A DNA stretch of 53,322 nucleotides from a virus (lineage: Duplodnaviria > Caudoviricetes), in the IMG/VR virus record IMGVR_UViG_3300047187_000003, positions 1 through 53,322 of that record, one strand, 5' to 3'. Position numbers and translations under genes: made by a program. Every line of letters starts with the position of its first letter. The stretch's first letter is position 1. The notes beneath the pieces are model-generated. The model made no database searches. It saw nothing but the letters and a program-made list of their open reading frames with translations, and had not been told where the DNA came from. Positions 1,240-43,403 of the stretch are shown here, one piece after another.

Positions 1240-3245
1240 GAAAATTATTTATAATATTATTTCTTTTCATCGGTGTTGTTCAGGCACAGACAACCTATTA
1301 TATTGATCCTGCGGGTACAGATGGCGGAGGTCATACAGGATTAATTGCTGATCCTTGGGTGACTCTTTCTTATGCTTGTACTCAGGTTACAACATCTGGT
1401 GATATTATTCATGTAAATGCAGGGACTTATACTGAAACAGCAAATTGCAATGTCTCTGTTGGTGTAAGTATCGAAGGAGTTGGAGTTACTTCACATATAG
1501 ATTTTACTCATGCAGCAACGGATTATACAGATGCTTCAATCAGGCTTGTTTCGGGTTCAGAAGGAACGGACGGAAATCAGAGTATAAGTTATTTATATCT
1601 TGATGGAAATAGTCAGGCTTCTTATCATGGAGTACTTGTAAAATGCAGAAGTAATGTTTTAATACATCATTGTACTTTTATAAACTTCCGATACAATGCG
1701 GTTCATTTCAACGGTAAGTTGGCGGGTTATGTTACTGGCGTCCCTCCTGCATCAACATGGGCAACTGGTAATCAACTTTATAACTGTACAATTACAAATT
1801 GCTCAAATATTCTTTATAATTACAATGAAACAGGGCATGGTAATATCAGATTTACCGGACAATCAGGATTACTTATTCACGACAATACAATAACGCAAAC
1901 AGGAGCAGCAGCAAATTATAATGCAAATATTGTAGATGCTGTAGAAGGATGCAATAAAGGGTGTAAATATTATAATAACATTTCTTATAAACCTGATGTC
2001 ACTACAACCGATTGGAATTTTCACCTTGAGGAATGGTATATATATGGTGGTTATGAGGTTTACGGGAATGAATTTCATGGTGGAGAACAGGGTTTTGATG
2101 TCGGTGGTTGTGTAAAAGGAAGTTATTTATTTTCTGCAAAAATATATGATAATTTATTCCAGTTTAGTGCAAAAAGGTCTTTTGTTTCTCGTACCATATT
2201 AGCCATTAATCTTGAAAATGTTGCAACAGTAGGAACTTCATTGGGAGACGTAAAAGATGTTTCAATATATAATAATCATGTTCAAAATCTTCCCTATGGA
2301 ATAAATATGACTTCTATTGTTGGCACAACTGATTTTGAGAACATTGATATTCATTGCAATATTTTTGAAAACATGGGTTTTAATCCATCAGATTGGTGTT
2401 TTGTATTCAAGATTGAACCGCAAGGTGATATGACTAATGTTTATGTTTATAATAATGTTATTCATTCTTCTACAACGGGACAGTCTATGTGTTCATTTTA
2501 TTTCAATCCATCGGGTATTATCACTGATTTTTATGTAAAAAATAATATTATACTAAATGATAATGCGAGTATTGGGCCTATTTATGCAGAAGACTTCGCA
2601 GGTACATTTACAAATCTTCACTGGAACTACAATGATTTTTATAATAATGGAGTTAATCTTATTTATTATGCTGGAGCAAAAAGAATTATTAATTTTCTAA
2701 ATACAAATAATATAAATGGTGATCCTTTATTTGTAGGCGGTTCTCCTTATGATTTTAATTTACAGGCAGGAAGTCCTGCTATCACAGCCGGAATAGGTGT
2801 AGGACTCACAACTGACTATGCAGGTAACGCATGGGCAACAACGCCCTCAATAGGTGCTTATGAATACGACAGTGACCCTCCTGATCCTCCCGGACTTCCT
2901 GAAGTCGAAACAGGTGCAGTAATTTACACCGCAGTAACAGCTAATGTAAGTTATGAAGTAACTTCCAACGGGGGAGGGACTCTTACAAATCGTGGAGTAT
3001 GCTATTCACTTTCTACTAATCCTACAACAAGTGATAGAAAAACTGTTTACACATCATCTTTAGGCTCGTTTACAGATGTTTTAAGAGGACTTCATGGCGG
3101 GGTGACGTATCATGCCAGAGCGTACACGATAAACGAAAGCGGTACTTCCTATGGGGCTGACATTTCGTTTACAACGCTTGCTCAGTCTATTATTAAAAAT
3201 AGTACAAAAACTTTAAGATTAACGAAGACTGTAATAATAAGATGA
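1236..3245 (+). CDS. Secreted right-handed beta-helix (pectin lyase-like) protein with C-terminal FN3-like domain; candidate depolymerase/adhesin
   Basis: Signal peptide MRKLFIILFLFIGVVQA-Q; TYYIDPAG..., GDIIHVNAGTY, Asn-rich repeats, DF.LQ.GSPAI..G...SIGAYE segment, Pro linker, RGVCYS...TYHARAY..N..GTSYG FN3-like motif. Confidence 0.7.
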   Translation: MRKLFIILFLFIGVVQAQTTYYIDPAGTDGGGHTGLIADPWVTLSYACTQVTTSGDIIHVNAGTYTETANCNVSVGVSIEGVGVTSHIDFTHAATDYTDASIRLVSGSEGTDGNQSISYLYLDGNSQASYHGVLVKCRSNVLIHHCTFINFRYNAVHFNGKLAGYVTGVPPASTWATGNQLYNCTITNCSNILYNYNETGHGNIRFTGQSGLLIHDNTITQTGAAANYNANIVDAVEGCNKGCKYYNNISYKPDVTTTDWNFHLEEWYIYGGYEVYGNEFHGGEQGFDVGGCVKGSYLFSAKIYDNLFQFSAKRSFVSRTILAINLENVATVGTSLGDVKDVSIYNNHVQNLPYGINMTSIVGTTDFENIDIHCNIFENMGFNPSDWCFVFKIEPQGDMTNVYVYNNVIHSSTTGQSMCSFYFNPSGIITDFYVKNNIILNDNASIGPIYAEDFAGTFTNLHWNYNDFYNNGVNLIYYAGAKRIINFLNTNNINGDPLFVGGSPYDFNLQAGSPAITAGIGVGLTTDYAGNAWATTPSIGAYEYDSDPPDPPGLPEVETGAVIYTAVTANVSYEVTSNGGGTLTNRGVCYSLSTNPTTSDRKTVYTSSLGSFTDVLRGLHGGVTYHARAYTINESGTSYGADISFTTLAQSIIKNSTKTLRLTKTVIIR

Positions 3246-3526
3246 TACTGGCCTTTAAAATAGCAATTATAATCACTGTCTTTGTTAATCTCTGTGAACC
3301 GGGGATGATATTCTCGTTTTATGGCAAGTTAATTGACAGATTACCCGGCTGGCTTTATAATCCATTGGGTGGATGTGTAAAATGCACTACCGGACAGGCG
3401 TGTTTCTGGGGTTATATCATTGCTTATTTTCATTCGTATAATTTATTTGAACATATATTATTTATCTCATCAGGAATTATTCTCTCATTAATTATAGATA
3501 AGTTATGGAATCTTTGCGAGACGTAG
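3242..3526 (+). CDS. Small membrane protein with CxxC motif
   Basis: Hydrophobic segments; PLGGCVKCTTGQ. Confidence 0.6.
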   Translation: MILAFKIAIIITVFVNLCEPGMIFSFYGKLIDRLPGWLYNPLGGCVKCTTGQACFWGYIIAYFHSYNLFEHILFISSGIILSLIIDKLWNLCET

Positions 3527-38752: not shown

Positions 38753-39046
38753 ATGCGAGGTCCGGGGAAAGGGAAGAGTAATAATCCAAAAGGAAAACCG
38801 AAAGGAGCTATAAACAGAACTACTAAAGAGGCTAAAGAGTTTCTTGAATATGTTATGTTCGGTCAATTAGATAATATTAATAAAGCTCTTAATAAATTAT
38901 ATTCAAAAGACCCCGCAAGATATATTGACGCTTATTCTAAGTTATTCGGATATGTATTACCAAAGAGAACCGATGTAACGAGCGATGACAAACCTATTAT
39001 TCCGCAATTACCAGTAGTTATATTAAAAAAACATAATGCAAGTTGA
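38753..39046 (+). CDS. Terminase small subunit (putative)
   Basis: GKSNNPKGKPKG..N motif; immediately before TerL. Confidence 0.7.
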   Translation: MRGPGKGKSNNPKGKPKGAINRTTKEAKEFLEYVMFGQLDNINKALNKLYSKDPARYIDAYSKLFGYVLPKRTDVTSDDKPIIPQLPVVILKKHNAS

Positions 39047-41492
39047 AATAGAACAGGAATTTTCCGAGCCTCAATTAGCGATATTCAACAGTATAGCTAC
39101 TATTAACTTATTCCTTGCGGGGGTAGGATCAGGGAAAACTCATCTTGACGGTCTTATATCAAAACAACTAATATCTTCATTTCCTGAAGCACGTGGGGGA
39201 ATATTTGCAAATACATACGATCAACTAAATACTTCGACTTTATTTCGTATTCGTGAATATTGGGCATCAACAGGAATGACCGAATGGAGTAAAGAGAATC
39301 CTAATGGTGTTTATGTCTCAGGTAAAGAACCTCCGGCTGCATGGACAAAATGCAAACGTAATTTTGACAGATTTACGAATATCATTTCATTCTGTAACGG
39401 TGCTTTGATATTTACAGGTTCATTAGATAATGCAGTCATGCACTCCGGAAAAGAAATGGCTTGGAGTATTCTTGATGAAACAAAAGACTCACGTGAAGAA
39501 GACGTTAAAGAGATCATTCTTTCTCGTTTGCGTCAACCGGGAATGTATTTAGTTGATGGAGTGATTAAAAATTCAGGAACTCAAGCGCAACAGTGGAATC
39601 CGCTTTATATATCTACTTCTCCGGCTAAAGTTCCCTGGATTGCAGAATGGTTTGAACTCGAATCTTATATAGACGAGATTTCAGCACAGATTTATTCAGA
39701 TAAAACATTTTTTCAGAAAGCATTTAAAGATAAGTTTGTAACAATATCCTCGACCTATCACAATGTTCATAATGTCGGTGAGAATTATATTAAGAAATTA
39801 CTATCAGAGAATACAGAGGAAAAGGGGAAGGCACTCGTTTATGCAAACCCTTTTGTTACAACTGGCGGCGAGTTCTACTCTTCATTCAATCGATTAAAAC
39901 ACGTCTCACCTGTTAAATATAATCCCGAGATACCTATTCACATATCCTTCGATCAGAACTCAGTGCCTTACAACTCAGCAGGAATCTCGCAGATAGTTCG
40001 TGACGGTAATAACTGGCAATGGCGATTCATTGATGAGATAGCACTCGTTAACCCTCACAATTCAACAGAAGAGGTCTGTGATGAGTTTATGAGACGTTAT
40101 CCGAAACATAAAGCAGGGCTTTACTATTACGGTGACGCTTCAGGACACAACCGTACAGTGATGAATAAAGATTTTAAACATCATTACCAGGTTATCGAGG
40201 CTAAACTAAGAAATTATCTGGTTAACGGTTCTGACAGGTCGCTCTTTAAGAATCCTTCATGTCCGATGCGCAGGGATTTCATTAACAGGATATTTGAAGA
40301 TAAACTACCGATAAGAGTTGTTATTGATGATTCATGTCATCATTTAATCGGTGATCTTATGTATTGCAAGCAGGGATTGGATGGAGGTAAGGATAAGCAT
40401 ATAGTCACTGATAAAGACACCGGGGAGAAGTATCAGAAATATGGTCATTTCGGGGATTGTTTTACAGGCAATACAAAAGTAATTACTACTAAAGGGGGAA
40501 AGGATTTTAGTAAATTAGTAATTGGAGAAAGAGTTTTAACAAGAAATGGGTATAAGAAAATTACAGCATTTTACGAAAAAGGATTAAGAACGGTTAATAA
40601 ATATAAGATAGGCAATAGGATTATAGAATGTACCGCAGAACATAAAATATTTGCAAATGGTGAATTTATTATGGTATCATCCTTGATTAATAAGAATATT
40701 AATACTATCTTTGCAAGAAAAAGGACATGGAAAGGCAGACTATTCTTATGGATGGGTATAAATTCCATAGATACCCGAATGCAAAGAAATCATCAGACAG
40801 AAACTATTACAAAGGATGGATTAAAGAGAATGGAGTTTGGAGAAAAACAAGCCTTCATATTTACATTTGGGAAAAGGTTAATGGAAAGATTCCGAAGGGA
40901 TTTGTGGTTCATCATGACAATGGCAAATTTGAAGATAACACGATTGGAAATTATAAGCTTATCAGTCGTCCGAAACATATACAAATCCATTACGAACGGT
41001 ATTCGCAGGAGTTTAAAGACAAAAACACAAAAAGACTTATCGAAAAGGCAATCCCCAAAGCAGTTGAATGGCATAAGTCTGAGGCCGGTCAGAAGTGGCA
41101 TAGAGAAAACACTGATAAACTTATATACACAGACGAATATACTCAAATCTGTATTGGATGCGGAACGGAATTCAAATCAAACTTACGAAAAAAACCAAAA
41201 TGGTGTTCAAGAAAATGCCAGCTTAAATATCAAGCAAGAAAAAACAGAACAGAAGGAAAATATCAAGAAGAAAGAATATGCCAAACCTGTGGGGGAGTTT
41301 TCAAGGCTTATAAATGGAATACAAATAAATTCTGTTCACGTTCCTGTGTCCAGAATAGGCAAAAGTAAAAAAACATACGTTTATGATATTACTGTTGAGC
41401 AGGATCACGAGTTCTTTGCTAATGGAGTTCTCGTGCATAATTGTTTTGAATATATGGCAGTAGAGTTATTTAAAAACTATTATAATGGGTAA
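39036..41492 (+). CDS. terL: Terminase large subunit precursor with intein (mature about 490 aa)
   Basis: Walker A AGVGSGKT, Walker B SILDE, nuclease ISFD, YGDASG, HFGD. Confidence 0.92.
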   Translation: MQVEIEQEFSEPQLAIFNSIATINLFLAGVGSGKTHLDGLISKQLISSFPEARGGIFANTYDQLNTSTLFRIREYWASTGMTEWSKENPNGVYVSGKEPPAAWTKCKRNFDRFTNIISFCNGALIFTGSLDNAVMHSGKEMAWSILDETKDSREEDVKEIILSRLRQPGMYLVDGVIKNSGTQAQQWNPLYISTSPAKVPWIAEWFELESYIDEISAQIYSDKTFFQKAFKDKFVTISSTYHNVHNVGENYIKKLLSENTEEKGKALVYANPFVTTGGEFYSSFNRLKHVSPVKYNPEIPIHISFDQNSVPYNSAGISQIVRDGNNWQWRFIDEIALVNPHNSTEEVCDEFMRRYPKHKAGLYYYGDASGHNRTVMNKDFKHHYQVIEAKLRNYLVNGSDRSLFKNPSCPMRRDFINRIFEDKLPIRVVIDDSCHHLIGDLMYCKQGLDGGKDKHIVTDKDTGEKYQKYGHFGDCFTGNTKVITTKGGKDFSKLVIGERVLTRNGYKKITAFYEKGLRTVNKYKIGNRIIECTAEHKIFANGEFIMVSSLINKNINTIFARKRTWKGRLFLWMGINSIDTRMQRNHQTETITKDGLKRMEFGEKQAFIFTFGKRLMERFRRDLWFIMTMANLKITRLEIISLSVVRNIYKSITNGIRRSLKTKTQKDLSKRQSPKQLNGISLRPVRSGIEKTLINLYTQTNILKSVLDAERNSNQTYEKNQNGVQENASLNIKQEKTEQKENIKKKEYAKPVGEFSRLINGIQINSVHVPVSRIGKSKKTYVYDITVEQDHEFFANGVLVHNCFEYMAVELFKNYYNG
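40682..40713 (+). promoter_or_regulatory. Internal Bacteroidota promoter for the nested HNH gene
   Basis: CTTG (40682-40685), 20-nt spacer, TATCTTTG (40706-40713), 13 nt before ATG 40727. Confidence 0.6.
40727..41368 (+). CDS. HNH homing endonuclease with zinc-finger repeats, nested out of frame inside the intein
   Basis: LHIYIWEKVNGKIPKGFVVHHDNG...N...N...H; CIGCG...WCSRKC and CQTCG...FCSRSC. Confidence 0.9.
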   Translation: MERQTILMDGYKFHRYPNAKKSSDRNYYKGWIKENGVWRKTSLHIYIWEKVNGKIPKGFVVHHDNGKFEDNTIGNYKLISRPKHIQIHYERYSQEFKDKNTKRLIEKAIPKAVEWHKSEAGQKWHRENTDKLIYTDEYTQICIGCGTEFKSNLRKKPKWCSRKCQLKYQARKNRTEGKYQEERICQTCGGVFKAYKWNTNKFCSRSCVQNRQK

Positions 41493-41649
41493 CAGGACAT
41501 TGTTTATTTTGCTGATATTCCCTTTTATCATTGCGAGTGTGTTGGTTATGGTTGCCTCGGCTTTTTACTGGTTATTCACAGGGAGAAATTTACTATATGT
41601 TATTGATTGGATGGTTTTAGAGATGAAAAATTTAGAGGATAAGATATGA
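41485..41649 (+). CDS. Small membrane protein (54 aa), not in ORF track
   Basis: MGNRTLFILLIFPFIIASVLVMVASAFYWLF...; overlaps TerL stop and portal ATG. Confidence 0.55.
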   Translation: MGNRTLFILLIFPFIIASVLVMVASAFYWLFTGRNLLYVIDWMVLEMKNLEDKI

Positions 41650-43403
41650 AAAGGGATGAGGGGTTGATTTTATTGCGTGAAGTTGTTGAAGAGAACAAAA
41701 CACATCAGGATTACGAGAGAGTAACCAAATTAGCAGATAAGTATTTTAAACTATTCACCGGGAATGGTATTGAGAAACTACTCCAACAGGTCGTTACCAG
41801 GGAGACAGACGAGGAGTTCTTACAAAGAACTAACATAACAAAGTCTGTTTGTCCGTCGATACTTAACTCGACTAAATTGCCATTTCAGAAAGCTACACGT
41901 AAGCCTCCGAGGGTGCGTAAGATAGACTTTGGCACTGAATCTGAGCAGAAGAAAACAGAACTGGAAGGGTTTATTGCGAAATACTGGGGTGACAAGTCAC
42001 TTGAAAAGTTTCTCGAATATGCTTTTGTTGATTATAACTACACAGACCCGAATGCTTTCCTTATTACCGAATTTGGGGAGTTCGATAACCTCAAAGAGAA
42101 AGCACAGCCATACCCGTTTATAGCTTCATCCGCAGAGGCAATAATGTTCGAATACCCCAATGAGATACTCGACTACCTGATTGTTAGGCTTCCAATAACA
42201 TATATAGACAAAGGATCACCTCAACCCGGGTTTAAATATACTATGTATTTAGGGCAGGACACAATAGAGCTGGTACAGGTATCTGAGGATGAAAAGATGA
42301 ATAACGATGTTATTGAGATAGCTAAGAAATACTATCTTTTGACTTATTATGAGCCTAAAAACGAGAAAGTACCTGCAATAAGATTTGGTTATAACAGGGA
42401 CACCGAAACTAAAGGTCGGACTTTTGTCTCAATCTTTCATCCTGTTATGGCTTATCTTGAGAAGACATTAAAAATTGATTCAGAACTGGACCTTTCGACA
42501 GCTATGACGGCTTTCCCGCAGAGATTTTCTTATGTAACGCCTTGTAATAACGCAGGATGTTACAAAGGACTGCTCGCTGATAATTCAATCTGTCCTGTTT
42601 GTTCGGGAACGGGTATTCAGCCTTTTCACCGGGGGACGATGGATATTATCACATTGGCACTACCGAAGAATCCTGAAGAGATGGTCGATCTTGATAATAT
42701 GCTCGTTTACAAAGCACCTCCGATTGAACTGTTGACTTTCCAGAAGGATTACATAGAGTATTTGAAGATCAGCGTTCAGAATATGCTCTTTAATGCTGAT
42801 CCACTAAGCCGGAGCGAGGTAACACAAACAGCAACAGAGGTCGTTAACAAGACTGATAATCTTAATGATACACTTTATCCTTTTGCCCAGCATTACTCAT
42901 CAGTTTGGGAGTTTGTCGTTAAAGATATAGCTACTTTTACTGATTTAGTTAATGGGTTGATTGTTCAGTTTAAGTTCCCGAATGACTTTAAGATGAAATC
43001 CTTGCAGGAATTAATGTTCGATCTGAAGTCTGCCAAAGATTCAACAGCTTCTTCGTCAACGATTGCAGCTATCGAAGATGACATTAATGAGTTACTTTAC
43101 TCAGATCGGCCTGATGACCTGAAGAGAATACGAATAAAGAATAATCTCAATCCTTACCGGGGTAATAGTGAGGCTGATGTTAAATTTATCATATCTCAAA
43201 ATAATGTGCCTCTTTATACGAGGACATTATGGGAGAACTTTGAGAGTATATTCCAGGATCTGGAACAGGAACACGAATCACCTTGGCTTTATGATATGAA
43301 CGAGAATGCTATCAGGGAACTGGTCAAGGCAAAGACCGAAGAGTATGTTAAAACGATCAAAGCAGAGACTCCTGAACCAGTAATAAATCAACCTTTTCAG
43401 TAA
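41646..43403 (+). CDS. Portal protein
   Basis: 585 aa after TerL; helical; C-terminal FP.DF motif; position-based. Confidence 0.75.
   Translation: MKRDEGLILLREVVEENKTHQDYERVTKLADKYFKLFTGNGIEKLLQQVVTRETDEEFLQRTNITKSVCPSILNSTKLPFQKATRKPPRVRKIDFGTESEQKKTELEGFIAKYWGDKSLEKFLEYAFVDYNYTDPNAFLITEFGEFDNLKEKAQPYPFIASSAEAIMFEYPNEILDYLIVRLPITYIDKGSPQPGFKYTMYLGQDTIELVQVSEDEKMNNDVIEIAKKYYLLTYYEPKNEKVPAIRFGYNRDTETKGRTFVSIFHPVMAYLEKTLKIDSELDLSTAMTAFPQRFSYVTPCNNAGCYKGLLADNSICPVCSGTGIQPFHRGTMDIITLALPKNPEEMVDLDNMLVYKAPPIELLTFQKDYIEYLKISVQNMLFNADPLSRSEVTQTATEVVNKTDNLNDTLYPFAQHYSSVWEFVVKDIATFTDLVNGLIVQFKFPNDFKMKSLQELMFDLKSAKDSTASSSTIAAIEDDINELLYSDRPDDLKRIRIKNNLNPYRGNSEADVKFIISQNNVPLYTRTLWENFESIFQDLEQEHESPWLYDMNENAIRELVKAKTEEYVKTIKAETPEPVINQPFQ

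What the first reader, a model, noticed from the sequence alone, without database searches (positions are those of the whole stretch)
40727..41368. Homing endonuclease encoded as a separate, out-of-frame gene nested inside the intein
Seen: the intein frame has only splicing motifs at its ends, and its middle 210 or so residues show no LAGLIDADG or HNH motif. The same DNA in another + frame (offset 2) encodes a complete 213-aa HNH nuclease with two CxxC...CSxxC zinc fingers and its own ATG and stop. Both frames stay open over 642 nt in AT-rich DNA, so a simple frameshift error is unlikely. Established: canonical inteins carry the endonuclease in frame. Inference: an endonuclease gene invaded a mini-intein, which tolerates the junk translation by splicing it out. 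I recall non-canonical phage inteins of this kind being described, so novelty needs a literature check.
Basis: partly seen in the sequence, partly recalled or inferred. Interest (0 to 1): 0.85.

Follow-up and report, generated by a model that had tools for sequence, protein, structure and literature searches.

The report
Terminase intein hiding an out-of-frame HNH gene
A phage DNA-packaging gene carries a self-splicing protein insert (an intein), and a complete HNH nuclease gene is written in a second reading frame inside it; the layout is real and under selection, but it is one more example of a kind of intein first described in recent preprints.

Summary
Observation confirmed. terL (39036-41492) carries a 328-aa intein (40458-41441). 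Its +2 frame holds a 213-aa HNH_3 ORF (40727-41368). The intein frame has no stop across that ORF, against 6.2 expected.

All 20 metagenomic viral loci holding an HNH relative (6, 13, one re-fetch not re-read), and four cultured phages, keep the same nesting and phase. The HNH frame is under purifying selection (dN/dS 0.13-0.37). The intein frame evolves neutrally (0.58-1.17) apart from stop avoidance.

AlphaFold folds the HNH frame well (pLDDT 86; best match I-HmuI). In the intein frame only the two splicing lobes fold. Contigs of four runs show no indels.

Best reading: a mini-intein in the conserved C-terminal GH-x-x-D motif of TerL, with a separately expressed homing-type HNH gene inside it. 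Splicing discards the meaningless linker. Expression, splicing and cleavage are inferred.

The kind is in print: Gorbalenya 1998, and the Gosselin 2025 and Phillips 2026 preprints. This HNH_3 lineage was not found in my searches.

This scan has noted the same layout before on other DNA: 93 notes in at least 87 genomes.

The parts
39036..41492 (+). terL gene including the intein (818 codons plus stop)
   Evidence: ORF. The N-extein matches PHROG phrog_2 'terminase large subunit' at E 8.5e-13, and the next large gene (41646-43403) matches a portal PHROG at 5.3e-14. 65 related TerL loci were found.
39036..40457 (+). N-extein of TerL, ending in the conserved KYQKYGHFGD motif
   Evidence: 57 related loci continue GH-x-x-D directly into 14-23 more codons with no insert.
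40458..41441 (+). Intein, 328 aa (Cys1 ... His-Asn, followed by Cys+1)
   Evidence: Pfam Intein_splicing E 1.5e-10. Boundaries come from comparison with intein-less homologues. The model matches mini-inteins, e.g. gp41-1 intein 6qaz at E 4.8e-5.
40458..40724 (+). N-terminal splicing lobe (intein residues 1-89; blocks A and B, TAEH)
   Evidence: AlphaFold pLDDT 90-94 for residues 1-80. C1, T59 and H62 are invariant in 11 inteins. The intein frame is more conserved than the +2 frame here.
40725..41300 (+). Intein-frame reading of the HNH gene: a stop-free but otherwise unconstrained linker (intein residues about 90-281)
   Evidence: pLDDT 30-74. No Pfam endonuclease match. NG86 dN/dS 0.58-1.17. 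0 stops against about 6 expected.
41301..41441 (+). C-terminal splicing lobe (intein residues about 282-328; blocks F and G, VYDITVEQDHEFFANGVLVHN). Its first ~22 codons overlap the end of the HNH ORF.
   Evidence: pLDDT 72-92 from residue 281. Invariant V308, V313, H317, A321, N322, V326, N328.
40727..41368 (+). Nested HNH endonuclease gene, +2 frame relative to terL, 213 aa, with its own ATG and TAA
   Evidence: Pfam HNH_3 and PHROG HNH endonuclease 1.4e-24. dN/dS 0.13-0.37. pLDDT 86.3. Top structural match is I-HmuI 1u3e.
40853..40969 (+). HNH_3 catalytic core (HNH residues 43-81; invariant H62, H63, N71, N75, then H84, H88 just beyond)
   Evidence: Pfam stretch 43-81. These residues are invariant in 16 of 16 aligned relatives.
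41150..41218 (+). First CxxC...CSxxC zinc-ribbon motif (HNH residues 142-164)
   Evidence: Sequence. C142 is invariant and C145, C160, C164 are 90% or more conserved. Weak matches to YacG and FCS zinc fingers, Z 3.5-3.9.
41279..41347 (+). Second CxxC...CSxxC zinc-ribbon motif (HNH residues 185-207); absent in relative L040
40683..40713 (+). Candidate internal promoter: TTG-N20-TATCTTTG, with the TAnnTTTG box at 40706-40713, 14 nt before the HNH ATG
   Evidence: TAnnTTTG starts at -21 from the ATG in 8 of 8 loci of this TerL family, including a third-codon T kept across four different codons. The full pattern is not enriched in the window: 10 seen against 6.4 +/- 2.6 expected. Function is inferred. 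The Bacteroidota-type consensus is recalled, not tested.
41442..41492 (+). C-extein of TerL (CFEYMAVELFKNYYNG) plus stop
   Evidence: intein-less relatives have L/x-F-E-Y... here, so Cys+1 replaces Leu.

Best explanation
This is a composite selfish element in the phage large-terminase gene. A class-1-type mini-intein (Cys1, TxxH, His-Asn, Cys+1) sits in the conserved C-terminal GH-x-x-D motif of TerL. The loop where canonical inteins carry their endonuclease domain instead holds a whole, separately expressed gene. That gene encodes an I-HmuI-like HNH_3 nuclease with two zinc ribbons and is written in the +2 frame.

Shown:
- Both frames are open.
- The HNH frame is under purifying selection.
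- The intein frame over the same DNA is free to change except that stops are purged.
- Only the two splicing lobes of the intein frame fold.
- The arrangement, its phase and its start codon position are conserved across many phages.
- The HNH gene is present only where the intein is.

Inferred:
- Ribosomes reading terL translate the HNH gene as a ~190-residue meaningless linker. Protein splicing removes it together with the lobes and restores TerL with Cys in place of Leu.
- The HNH protein is made independently by internal initiation at its conserved ATG. It may come from its own TAnnTTTG-type promoter 14 nt upstream, and so at a different time and amount from late TerL.
- The HNH protein nicks or cuts intein-less terL alleles of co-infecting phages near the GD|LFEY site. 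Repair then copies the intein and HNH together.
- The intein shields its own genome by interrupting the target.
For: Architecture.

Stop avoidance: 0 stops in all 6 distinct sequences against 6.0-7.4 expected. Stop-free resamples were at most 2 of 3000 per sequence. The third frame has 19-33 stops.

Selection: HNH-frame dN/dS is 0.13-0.37 in the 11 of 15 pairs where dS was not saturated. Intein-frame dN/dS is 0.58-1.17 in 15 of 15 pairs. Amino-acid identity between the window and L061 is 80% in the HNH frame and 59% in the intein frame. The better-conserved frame switches at about codon 90 and again at about codon 300.

Folds: the HNH model has pLDDT 86.3. Its top hit is I-HmuI 1u3e, Foldseek E 3.3e-3, VIA Z 6.8 over 112 residues (rmsd 8.5), with the next row at Z 4.2. 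In the intein model, residues 1-80 and 291-328 have pLDDT 89-94 and the middle has 30-74. It gives 14 PDB matches at E<=0.001, 12 of them to inteins and 2 to the hedgehog autoprocessing (HINT) domain.

Conservation of the layout:
- All 6 intein-bearing loci among the 65 of this TerL family.
- All 13 new loci among the 18 found with the HNH profile; the other 5 re-fetch contigs of that family, four of them already read.
- Cultured phages Highwayman, TJE1, phiCDHM19 and LS06-2018-MD07.
- The HNH is always +2 relative to the intein.

Linkage: tblastn finds the HNH in 6 of 65 TerL loci, exactly the 6 with the intein.

Sporadic distribution: the 6 intein-bearing rows need 6 changes on a 59-row TerL tree, with intein-less sisters at SH-aLRT 99-100 for L040/L039 and L052/L051.

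Free-standing relatives lie beside terL in 8 cultured phages.

No in-frame fusion was seen. The best 150 of 27,414 profile hits are 136-380 aa long. None of the 106 intein hits lists PF13392.

Start signals: ATG at +269 in 6 of 6. TAnnTTTG at -21 in 8 of 8.
Against: - Nothing here shows that the HNH protein is made, that the intein splices with a ~190-residue unstructured insert, or that the nuclease cuts the empty terL allele.
- The promoter motif alone is weak. The full -33/-7 pattern occurs 10 times in the window against 6.4 +/- 2.6 expected. The same bases also encode a conserved Ile-Phe of the intein.
- HNH divergence tracks extein divergence (e.g. 80% against 77% for the window and L061). 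The sample therefore shows no recent transfer, and sporadic presence could equally reflect repeated loss.
- The comparison of L040 with its intein-less sister L039 showed no clear co-conversion tract.
- The I-HmuI match is moderate (Z 6.8, rmsd 8.5).
- The TerL tree used the quick method, with SH-aLRT support only.
- That the GH-x-x-D motif is the nuclease metal-binding site is recalled knowledge. It could not be mapped onto a solved structure.
Confidence: 0.8

Rival explanations
1. The HNH protein is not a homing enzyme. It is a packaging helper, like the HNH proteins encoded next to terminase genes in HK97-like phages, and it has merely come to reside inside terL.
For: All 8 free-standing relatives examined lie directly beside terS, terL or the portal gene. 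The abstract of PMC3592412, seen in the listing, says many phages encode zinc-ribbon HNH endonucleases next to the cos site and terminase genes.
Against: 59 of the 65 TerL loci of this family show no HNH relative in the stretch fetched. 57 of them are intein-less at this site and 2 are cut before it, so the HNH is dispensable for packaging in this phage group. Its presence is tied one-to-one to the intein. It is Pfam HNH_3 and its nearest solved fold is the homing enzyme I-HmuI. Presence is sporadic on the TerL tree.
Confidence: 0.1
2. The endonuclease is really in frame with the intein. Either the apparent frame offset comes from two compensating sequencing errors at the A-runs that flank the ORF, or ribosomes or RNA polymerase slip at those runs to make a canonical intein-HNH fusion.
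For: The window has an A5 run just before the ATG and an A8 run just after the TAA.
Against: - The offset is kept in every distinct relative examined. That includes L061, which lacks the runs, and GC-rich phage TJE1.
- Contigs of 4 runs show no indels.
- An in-frame domain would not explain why the intein frame is purged of stops in all 6 sequences.
- In L024, L052 and L040 a +2-frame stop lies 4 codons before the ATG. No X XXY YYZ heptamer in the terL frame lies between it and the ATG (read).
- No long in-frame fusion was found.
Confidence: 0.03
3. The HNH ORF is a decaying relic that is no longer expressed. The intein persists only because it still splices.
For: One relative (L079) has a broken HNH frame while its intein frame stays open. 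phiCD119 has both frames broken. No recent transfer is visible in the sample.
Against: dN/dS of 0.13-0.37 holds over sequences down to 40% identity. The catalytic H/N/H residues and the zinc ligand C142 are invariant, and the other first-ribbon Cys are conserved in 90% or more. The start codon position and upstream motif are conserved. The fold is confident.
Confidence: 0.05
4. Both frames encode functional protein, so the intein-frame middle is a real domain (true dual coding).
For: The frame is open in all relatives. AlphaFold draws long helices there. The last ~22 codons of the overlap do belong to the folded C-lobe.
Against: dN/dS is about 1. Identity in the middle is 20-57%, against 40-80% in the HNH frame. 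pLDDT is 30-74. There is no Pfam match. L040 lacks 37 residues of it.
Confidence: 0.02

Closest known systems
[quoted passage not shown]
   Same: The nuclease ORF is on the same strand, lies between the splicing blocks and sits in the third frame. The in-frame middle has no recognisable structure. The hosts include terminase large subunits. The authors also propose that a free-standing endonuclease gene invaded an intein.
   Different: Their nuclease is endonuclease VII-like (IPR004211; matches 1E7D). This one is Pfam HNH_3 with two zinc ribbons and matches I-HmuI. No Endonuclease_7 hit appears at E<=0.1. tblastn with the window's HNH and with the TJE1 HNH returned no full-length match in a Mycobacterium phage. 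This lineage is in non-actinobacterial phages as well, and it sits at the C-terminal motif of TerL.
Cyanobacterial dnaX intein with an out-of-frame LAGLIDADG endonuclease (Phillips, DeSimone, Gogarten; bioRxiv 10.64898/2026.09.14.751524; I read the abstract and section 17). It follows Gorbalenya 1998, 'Non-canonical inteins', which is not held in the library and which I know only through these citations.
   Same: The endonuclease is encoded in the +2 ORF. The selection pattern is frame-specific, with low dN/dS in the endonuclease frame and raised dN/dS in the intein frame. Secondary invasion of a mini-intein is proposed.
   Different: The nuclease is LAGLIDADG rather than HNH. The host gene is cellular (dnaX) rather than a phage terL.
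ShiLan 'hidden' out-of-frame HNH insertion in phage DNA methylases (Arsenault et al. 2025, PMC11855218; I read the abstract and passages)
   Same: An HNH endonuclease with zinc fingers is written in the third frame of an insertion that adds no stop to the host gene. The same open question arises of how it is translated.
   Different: The ShiLan insertion has no detectable splicing domains. Here the flanks are a clear intein.
Fractured genes: split inteins with a free-standing endonuclease gene between the halves (Dassa et al. 2009, PMC2677866; I saw only the start of the abstract in a search listing)
   Same: An endonuclease gene sits between the N- and C-terminal intein halves. A relative in Vibrio phage 1.238.A has exactly this form: the intein frame stops and resumes around the HNH gene.
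   Different: In the window the intein frame is continuous, so one precursor is made and splicing is in cis.
I-HmuI, the intron-encoded HNH homing (nicking) endonuclease of phage SPO1 (PDB 1u3e)
   Same: It is the best and only clear structural match of the HNH model, and it shares the HNH_3-type motif.
   Different: Sequence identity is 12-14%. The C-terminal DNA-binding part here is two Cys4 ribbons. The gene sits in an intein rather than an intron. That I-HmuI nicks one strand is recalled, not tested here.

Membership tests
Intein (HINT-fold protein-splicing element, class 1 type) | Nucleophile (Cys/Ser) at position 1 and block B TxxH | tested here: met
   CFTGNT... at residue 1 and TAEH at residues 59-62. 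C1, T59 and H62 are invariant in 11 aligned inteins.
Intein (HINT-fold protein-splicing element, class 1 type) | C-terminal His-Asn followed by Cys/Ser/Thr at +1 | tested here: met
   ...VLVHN|CFEY. N328 is invariant and H327 is 90% or more conserved.
Intein (HINT-fold protein-splicing element, class 1 type) | In-frame insertion at a conserved site of a host protein that has insert-free homologues | tested here: met
   57 of 65 related TerL loci read GH-x-x-D straight into the last 14-23 codons. 6 carry the insert and 2 are cut.
Intein (HINT-fold protein-splicing element, class 1 type) | HINT fold of the splicing domain | tested here: met
   Pfam Intein_splicing E 1.5e-10. The AlphaFold lobes have pLDDT of about 90. 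There are 14 PDB matches at E<=0.001, 12 of them to inteins and 2 to the hedgehog autoprocessing (HINT) domain; the Mtu RecA splicing domain (TMt up to 0.75 at that cut-off) is among them.
Intein (HINT-fold protein-splicing element, class 1 type) | Actual protein splicing | not testable with these tools
   This needs a reporter assay.
HNH_3 / I-HmuI-like homing endonuclease | HNH_3 profile match above the curated cut-off, with conserved H...N...H residues | tested here: met
   36.1 bits against a cut-off of 24.8. H62, H63, N71, N75, H84 and H88 are invariant in 16 of 16 sequences.
HNH_3 / I-HmuI-like homing endonuclease | Fold like a solved HNH homing endonuclease | tested here: met
   1u3e (I-HmuI) ranks first in Foldseek (E 3.3e-3, prob 0.99) and in VIA (Z 6.8, rmsd 8.5, 112 aligned, next row Z 4.2). 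The strength of the match is moderate.
HNH_3 / I-HmuI-like homing endonuclease | Sporadic presence among close relatives of the host gene | tested here: met
   6 changes for 6 carriers on a 59-row TerL tree. Gain cannot be told from loss.
HNH_3 / I-HmuI-like homing endonuclease | Site-specific cutting of the insert-free allele and biased inheritance | not testable with these tools
   This needs enzyme assays and phage crosses.
Non-canonical inteins with the endonuclease in another frame (Gorbalenya 1998; Gosselin 2025; Phillips 2026) | A complete endonuclease ORF lies between the splicing blocks, not in the intein frame, while the intein frame stays open | tested here: met
Non-canonical inteins with the endonuclease in another frame (Gorbalenya 1998; Gosselin 2025; Phillips 2026) | Frame-specific selection: the endonuclease frame is constrained and the intein frame is relaxed | tested here: met
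   dN/dS of 0.13-0.37 against 0.58-1.17. Sliding identity profile.
Non-canonical inteins with the endonuclease in another frame (Gorbalenya 1998; Gosselin 2025; Phillips 2026) | Same nuclease family as the described same-strand cases (endonuclease VII-like or LAGLIDADG) | tested here: not met
   Only HNH_3 is found at E<=0.1. This is therefore a further nuclease family in the same kind of arrangement, not a member of the described lineages.
Fractured gene / split intein with a free-standing endonuclease (Dassa 2009) | The intein is split into two separately translated halves | tested here: not met
   The intein frame is continuous in the window. A distant relative in Vibrio phage 1.238.A is split.
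Terminase-associated packaging HNH (HK97 gp74-like) | Present in the related phages as part of the packaging machinery | tested here: not met
   The HNH is found in only 6 of 65 loci of the family, always together with the intein. Gene position next to terminase genes is met for the free-standing relatives.

The most novel reading that the evidence does not exclude
The out-of-frame layout is not a short-lived accident after an invasion. It is an old, stable, phase-locked design.

One intein-plus-HNH_3 module, always with the nuclease in the +2 frame, has spread to the same C-terminal TerL motif in unrelated terminase families. Its carriers are cultured phages of Acinetobacter, Tetrasphaera, Clostridium and Rhodobacteraceae hosts and the uncultured freshwater-sediment group of the window.

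Nesting would be kept for two reasons. First, it gives the nuclease its own promoter and start, so the nuclease is uncoupled in time and dose from late TerL. Second, an elongated I-HmuI-like enzyme could not sit in frame inside the HINT loop without blocking splicing.

A second, unrelated intein in the TerL P-loop (L071) hides a NUMOD4-HNH_3 gene in the other phase. This suggests that many phage inteins now scored as lacking an endonuclease carry a hidden one.
Probability: 0.35. Interest if true: 0.7.

Novelty: new member of a known kind. Interest (0 to 1): 0.5.

Why it matters
1. Annotation. Gene callers report one long terL and miss the nuclease, or they cut terL into pieces. This is seen in the records of phiCD119, vB_EauM-23 and Vibrio phage 1.238.A. 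Phage genomes therefore under-report homing endonucleases and mis-report terminases.

2. Intein evolution. This lineage supports the 'splicing first, endonuclease later' view. It shows four states: free-standing beside terL, nested out of frame, split (fractured) and decaying.

3. A natural splicing experiment. A HINT domain appears to tolerate about 190 residues of unselected sequence in its endonuclease loop. That is relevant to engineering inteins as insertion-tolerant switches.

4. A testable idea. If the internal promoter is real, overprinting would solve a timing problem, namely how a homing enzyme inside a late gene can act early.

Tried and rejected
Tools and searches that gave nothing usable:
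I therefore could not see the genomic context of P0006-P0010, which stay 'context unknown' in the tree.
- The wide HNH alignment A1 had no stretch conserved enough for the search for related loci. I made the narrower alignment A2 and used that.
- The genome-contig scan with A2 found no relative, so no prophage copy and no host were identified.
- Sequencing runs: no RNA holder listed. Only freshwater-sediment DNA runs hold the stretch, and all were kept as contigs, so expression and read-level heterogeneity could not be examined.
- The phmmer search of the TerL N-extein against PDB sequences gave only chance-level rows, best E 0.18. The insertion site could not be mapped to a solved terminase nuclease.
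- Rfam found no family at E<0.3 in 40200-41700, so there is no sign of an intron.
- The sigma-70-type promoter scan found 6 sites against 6.3 expected, and found no terminator. This is uninformative.
- The 'longer' protein search found no in-frame fusion. The tool itself calls this weak evidence.

Analyses that were inconclusive:
- Full -33/-7 pattern TTG-N17-21-TAnnTTTG: 10 in the window against 6.4 +/- 2.6 in Markov shuffles. The motif count alone does not support a promoter. Only the cross-locus conservation does.
- Search for a co-conversion tract between L040 (intein) and its intein-less sister L039. Identity drops just downstream of the site, but the pair is only about 80% identical overall.
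- Incongruence between splicing lobes and HNH. The HNH of L024 is closer to the window's than its lobes are (65% against 54%). This was noted but not tested with a topology test.

Literature:
- Gorbalenya 1998 is not held.
- Searches found no paper describing an HNH_3 gene out of frame in a TerL intein, and none linking TJE1 or phiCDHM19 with inteins.
- The TaPaz paper concerns a different P-loop intein and says nothing about frames.

A first run of the resampling script timed out. I repeated it with 3000 instead of 20000 draws.

Full report
**What is there.** The window's ORF 39036-41492 (818 aa) is the large terminase. Its first 474 residues match the PHROG family 'terminase large subunit' (E 8.5e-13), and the next large gene is a portal.

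Comparison with 65 related TerL loci from viral contigs fixes an insert:
- 57 loci run from the conserved KYQKYGH-x-x-D motif straight into the last 14-23 codons.
- 2 loci are cut before that point.
- 6 loci carry an extra 291-328 residues that begin with Cys and end with His-Asn followed by Cys.

In the window the insert is 40458-41441 (GHFGD|CFTGNT ... VLVHN|CFEY). Pfam calls it Intein_splicing (E 1.5e-10) and finds no endonuclease family in that frame.

In the +2 frame, 40727-41368 is an ATG-to-TAA ORF of 213 aa. It matches Pfam HNH_3 above the curated cut-off (36.1 against 24.8 bits) and a PHROG HNH endonuclease family (1.4e-24). It ends in two CxxC...CSxxC motifs.

**Is the double open frame more than chance?** Stops in the intein frame arise when an HNH codon ends in TA or TG and the next codon starts with A or G. 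In this AT-rich genome TTA, ATA and GTA are common codons.

I resampled the HNH codons synonymously with the window's own usage. This gave a mean of 6.0-7.4 intein-frame stops for each of six distinct sequences. At most 2 of 3000 resamples per sequence were stop-free. All six real sequences have none, while the third frame holds 19-33 stops. Two milder nulls, permuting synonymous codons within the gene and shuffling codon order, still gave P(0) of 0.003-0.054 and 0.0003-0.005.

An empirical control agrees. I examined 80 loci holding relatives of an unrelated NUMOD4-HNH_3 gene. In 73 of them both alternative same-strand frames are closed (median of the lower count 11 stops). The 7 with an open frame are themselves nested in terminase inteins.

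**Not an artefact.** The six intein-bearing loci of this TerL family give five distinct sequences, because L065 equals L024. All show the same layout, with the HNH ATG exactly 269 nt after the first base of the intein. L061 lacks the A-runs that flank the ORF in the window.

Contigs from four public freshwater-sediment runs laid on 40300-41600 show no inserted or deleted letters. One of those runs may be the source of this DNA. One independent run covers both ORF borders. These are contigs, not raw reads.

**Which frame is under selection?** I built a codon alignment of the six sequences.
- In the HNH frame, Nei-Gojobori dN/dS is 0.13-0.37. This covers 11 of 15 pairs; dS was saturated in the other four.
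- In the intein frame over the same columns, dN/dS is 0.58-1.17 for all 15 pairs.
- The third position of HNH codons changes most.
- Between the window and L061, identity is 80% in the HNH frame and 59% in the intein frame.

A sliding profile over five equal-length inteins shows the better-conserved frame switching from the intein frame to the HNH frame at about codon 90, and back at about codon 300.

H62, H63, N71, N75, H84, H88 and Cys142 are invariant in 16 aligned relatives, and Cys145, Cys160 and Cys164 are conserved in 90% or more.

**Folds.** With only 9 aligned sequences, AlphaFold gives the HNH frame a mean pLDDT of 86.3. Its best solved match is the HNH homing endonuclease I-HmuI (1u3e). 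Foldseek gives E 3.3e-3 and probability 0.99. VIA gives Z 6.8, rmsd 8.5 and 112 aligned residues, with the next row at Z 4.2. This is a moderate match, but the only one that stands out.

In the intein frame, residues 1-80 and 291-328 have pLDDT 89-94, and residues 90-280 have 30-74. The model gives 14 matches at E<=0.001, twelve to inteins (gp41-1, DnaX mini-intein, MchDnaB-1, Mtu RecA splicing domain) and two to the hedgehog autoprocessing (HINT) domain.

So the protein read in the terL frame is a mini-intein whose endonuclease loop is filled with about 190 residues that show neither constraint nor confident structure. The last ~22 codons of the overlap are different. They belong both to the second zinc ribbon and to the folded C-lobe.

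**How far does the arrangement reach?** A profile search of viral contigs with the HNH alignment returned 18 loci. Five re-fetch contigs of the window's TerL family (four read; L067, a re-fetch of the L061 contig, was not read again). All 13 new ones have the HNH inside a long TerL ORF with intein ends, and the intein frame is always +1 relative to the HNH, which means the HNH is +2. One of them is cut at the locus end.

These include TerL families with different flanks: KYGH|C...VHN|CTD, HVFD|C...VHN|CLRY and ENDH|C...VAN|CLDAL. In one locus (L079) the HNH frame is broken while the intein frame stays open.

tblastn against cultured phages found full-length relatives. I inspected 14 loci.
- Four are nested in the same phase: Acinetobacter phage Highwayman, Tetrasphaera phage TJE1, Clostridium phage phiCDHM19 and Rhodobacteraceae phage LS06-2018-MD07.
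- phiCD119 has both frames broken.
- In Vibrio phage 1.238.A the intein frame stops and resumes around the HNH gene. That makes it a split intein, or fractured terL.
- Eight are free-standing and lie directly beside terS, terL or the portal gene: vB_EauM-23, PAE1, FBPa53, SN1, CL2, Poludnitsa, BP10 and Shemara.

On an HNH tree, four free-standing genes form a supported clade, and BP10 groups with nested ones. Two nested/free changes suffice, and starred branches force only one (quick method, unrooted).

The family is large: 677 cluster representatives at E<=1e-30. The best 150 hits are all 136-380 aa long, so none is a long in-frame fusion. None of the 106 relatives of the intein lists HNH_3 in frame. 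The 'longer' search found nothing.

**Mobility.** Within the window's TerL family the HNH occurs in 6 of 65 loci, exactly those with the intein. On a TerL tree of 59 rows, the six carriers need six changes. Intein-less sisters are supported at SH-aLRT 99-100 for two of them. I left out L058-L063, L065 and L066 as partial or duplicate, and L071 because of its second intein.

This is the patchy pattern expected of a homing element, but gain cannot be told from loss. HNH divergence is about as deep as extein divergence, so no recent transfer is visible. The closest intein-plus and intein-minus pair showed no clear conversion tract.

**Expression signals.** Another note on this window (e1-6299657) proposed an internal promoter. 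I checked it.
- A TAnnTTTG box starts 21 nt before the HNH ATG in 8 of 8 loci of this family. The first T is kept at a third-codon position across ACT, GCT, TGT and AGT codons, and Phe is always TTT.
- An upstream TTG is present in 5 of 8 (my reading of the sequences printed).
- The full pattern is not enriched in the window (10 against 6.4 +/- 2.6). The bases also encode a conserved Ile-Phe.

The promoter is therefore a reasonable inference, not a finding. That TAnnTTTG is the Bacteroidota -7 consensus is recalled knowledge.

Frameshifting into the HNH frame is unlikely. A +2-frame stop lies 4-11 codons before the ATG, and no canonical slippery heptamer lies between them.

**Comparison with what is known.** The kind is in print.
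- Gosselin et al. (bioRxiv 2025; abstract, sections 8 and 15, and passages read) describe actinobacteriophage inteins, including TerL inteins, with an endonuclease VII-like gene 'in reading frame 3 relative to the intein'. They propose invasion by free-standing endonucleases.
- Phillips et al. (bioRxiv 2026; abstract and section 17 read) show the same frame-specific selection for an out-of-frame LAGLIDADG in the cyanobacterial dnaX intein. They credit Gorbalenya 1998, which I could not read.
- Arsenault et al. 2025 (abstract and passages read) describe a hidden third-frame HNH in a methylase insertion that has no splicing domains.
- Kelley et al. 2016 (passages read) found that the mycobacteriophage TerL inteins they surveyed all lie in the ATPase domain.

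The window's element differs in three ways: nuclease family (HNH_3 with zinc ribbons, I-HmuI-like), insertion site (the C-terminal GH-x-x-D motif) and host range. My four literature searches found no description of this lineage. Supplements were closed and may list members.

Earlier notes of this scan report the same layout on other DNA: 93 notes in at least 87 genomes, and the eight follow-ups shown agree. I treat these as leads, not evidence.

**Verdict.** This is a real, selected, two-frame arrangement: a mini-intein in terL with a nested, separately encoded HNH homing-type endonuclease. It is a new member of a recently described kind. Splicing, expression and cleavage are inferred and testable.

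Noticed in passing
L071:1015-1896 (intein) and L071:1199-1786 (nested ORF); also L099-L105: The TerL of a relative carries a second, unrelated intein in the Walker A P-loop (GGVG|CFHGETL...IIAHN|SGKTY). It also hides an out-of-frame gene, offset +1 this time, that encodes a NUMOD4 + HNH_3 endonuclease (Pfam 1.7e-6 and 1.3e-9). 7 of 80 loci with relatives of this nuclease are nested in the same way, down to 46% identity and in another TerL family. The other 73 are free-standing.
   Followed up: partly
window 40455-40460 and the matching sites in L023, L061 against L024, L040, L052, L071, L074: Homologous inteins sit at insertion points one codon apart within one TerL family. GD|C-FEY replaces Leu with Cys, and GDx|C-EY replaces Phe with Cys. 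In other TerL families the same intein lineage sits directly after the His (GH|C) or one residue after it (DHI|C). How a homing element shifts its site by three bases is unexplained.
   Followed up: partly
L095 (Vibrio phage 1.238.A, NC_055735.1) about 2399-3389: terL is fractured. The TerL N-part plus N-intein stops at 2534, an HNH gene follows (2399-3130), and the C-intein plus C-extein resumes at 3045-3386, annotated as 'hedgehog/hint domain protein'. It looks like a split-intein derivative of the nested layout.
   Followed up: partly
L079:3334-3639, and L093 (Clostridium phage phiCD119): These look like decaying copies. In L079 the HNH frame is cut to 102 aa while the intein frame stays open. 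In the phiCD119 record both frames are broken and terL is annotated in pieces. This may be real decay or old sequencing errors.
   Followed up: no
L024 against the window, L061, L023 (HNH) and L071, L074 (splicing lobes): The HNH of L024/L052 groups inside the site-a clade (window, L061, L023; SH-aLRT 95-99), but their splicing lobes resemble the site-b inteins. This hints at exchange of the HNH module between inteins.
   Followed up: no
window 41485-41649: A 54-codon ORF overlaps the terL stop and abuts the portal start. Its product is strongly hydrophobic (MGNRTLFILLIFPFIIASVLVMVASAFYWLF...) and has no PHROG match.
   Followed up: no
L087 (Exiguobacterium phage vB_EauM-23), L098 (Brevundimonas phage Poludnitsa): In the Poludnitsa record a 191-codon open frame holding a free-standing relative of the HNH lies unannotated in the gap between terL and the portal gene. 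The family's free-standing members consistently sit at the 3' end of terL, close to where the nested ones are inserted.
   Followed up: partly
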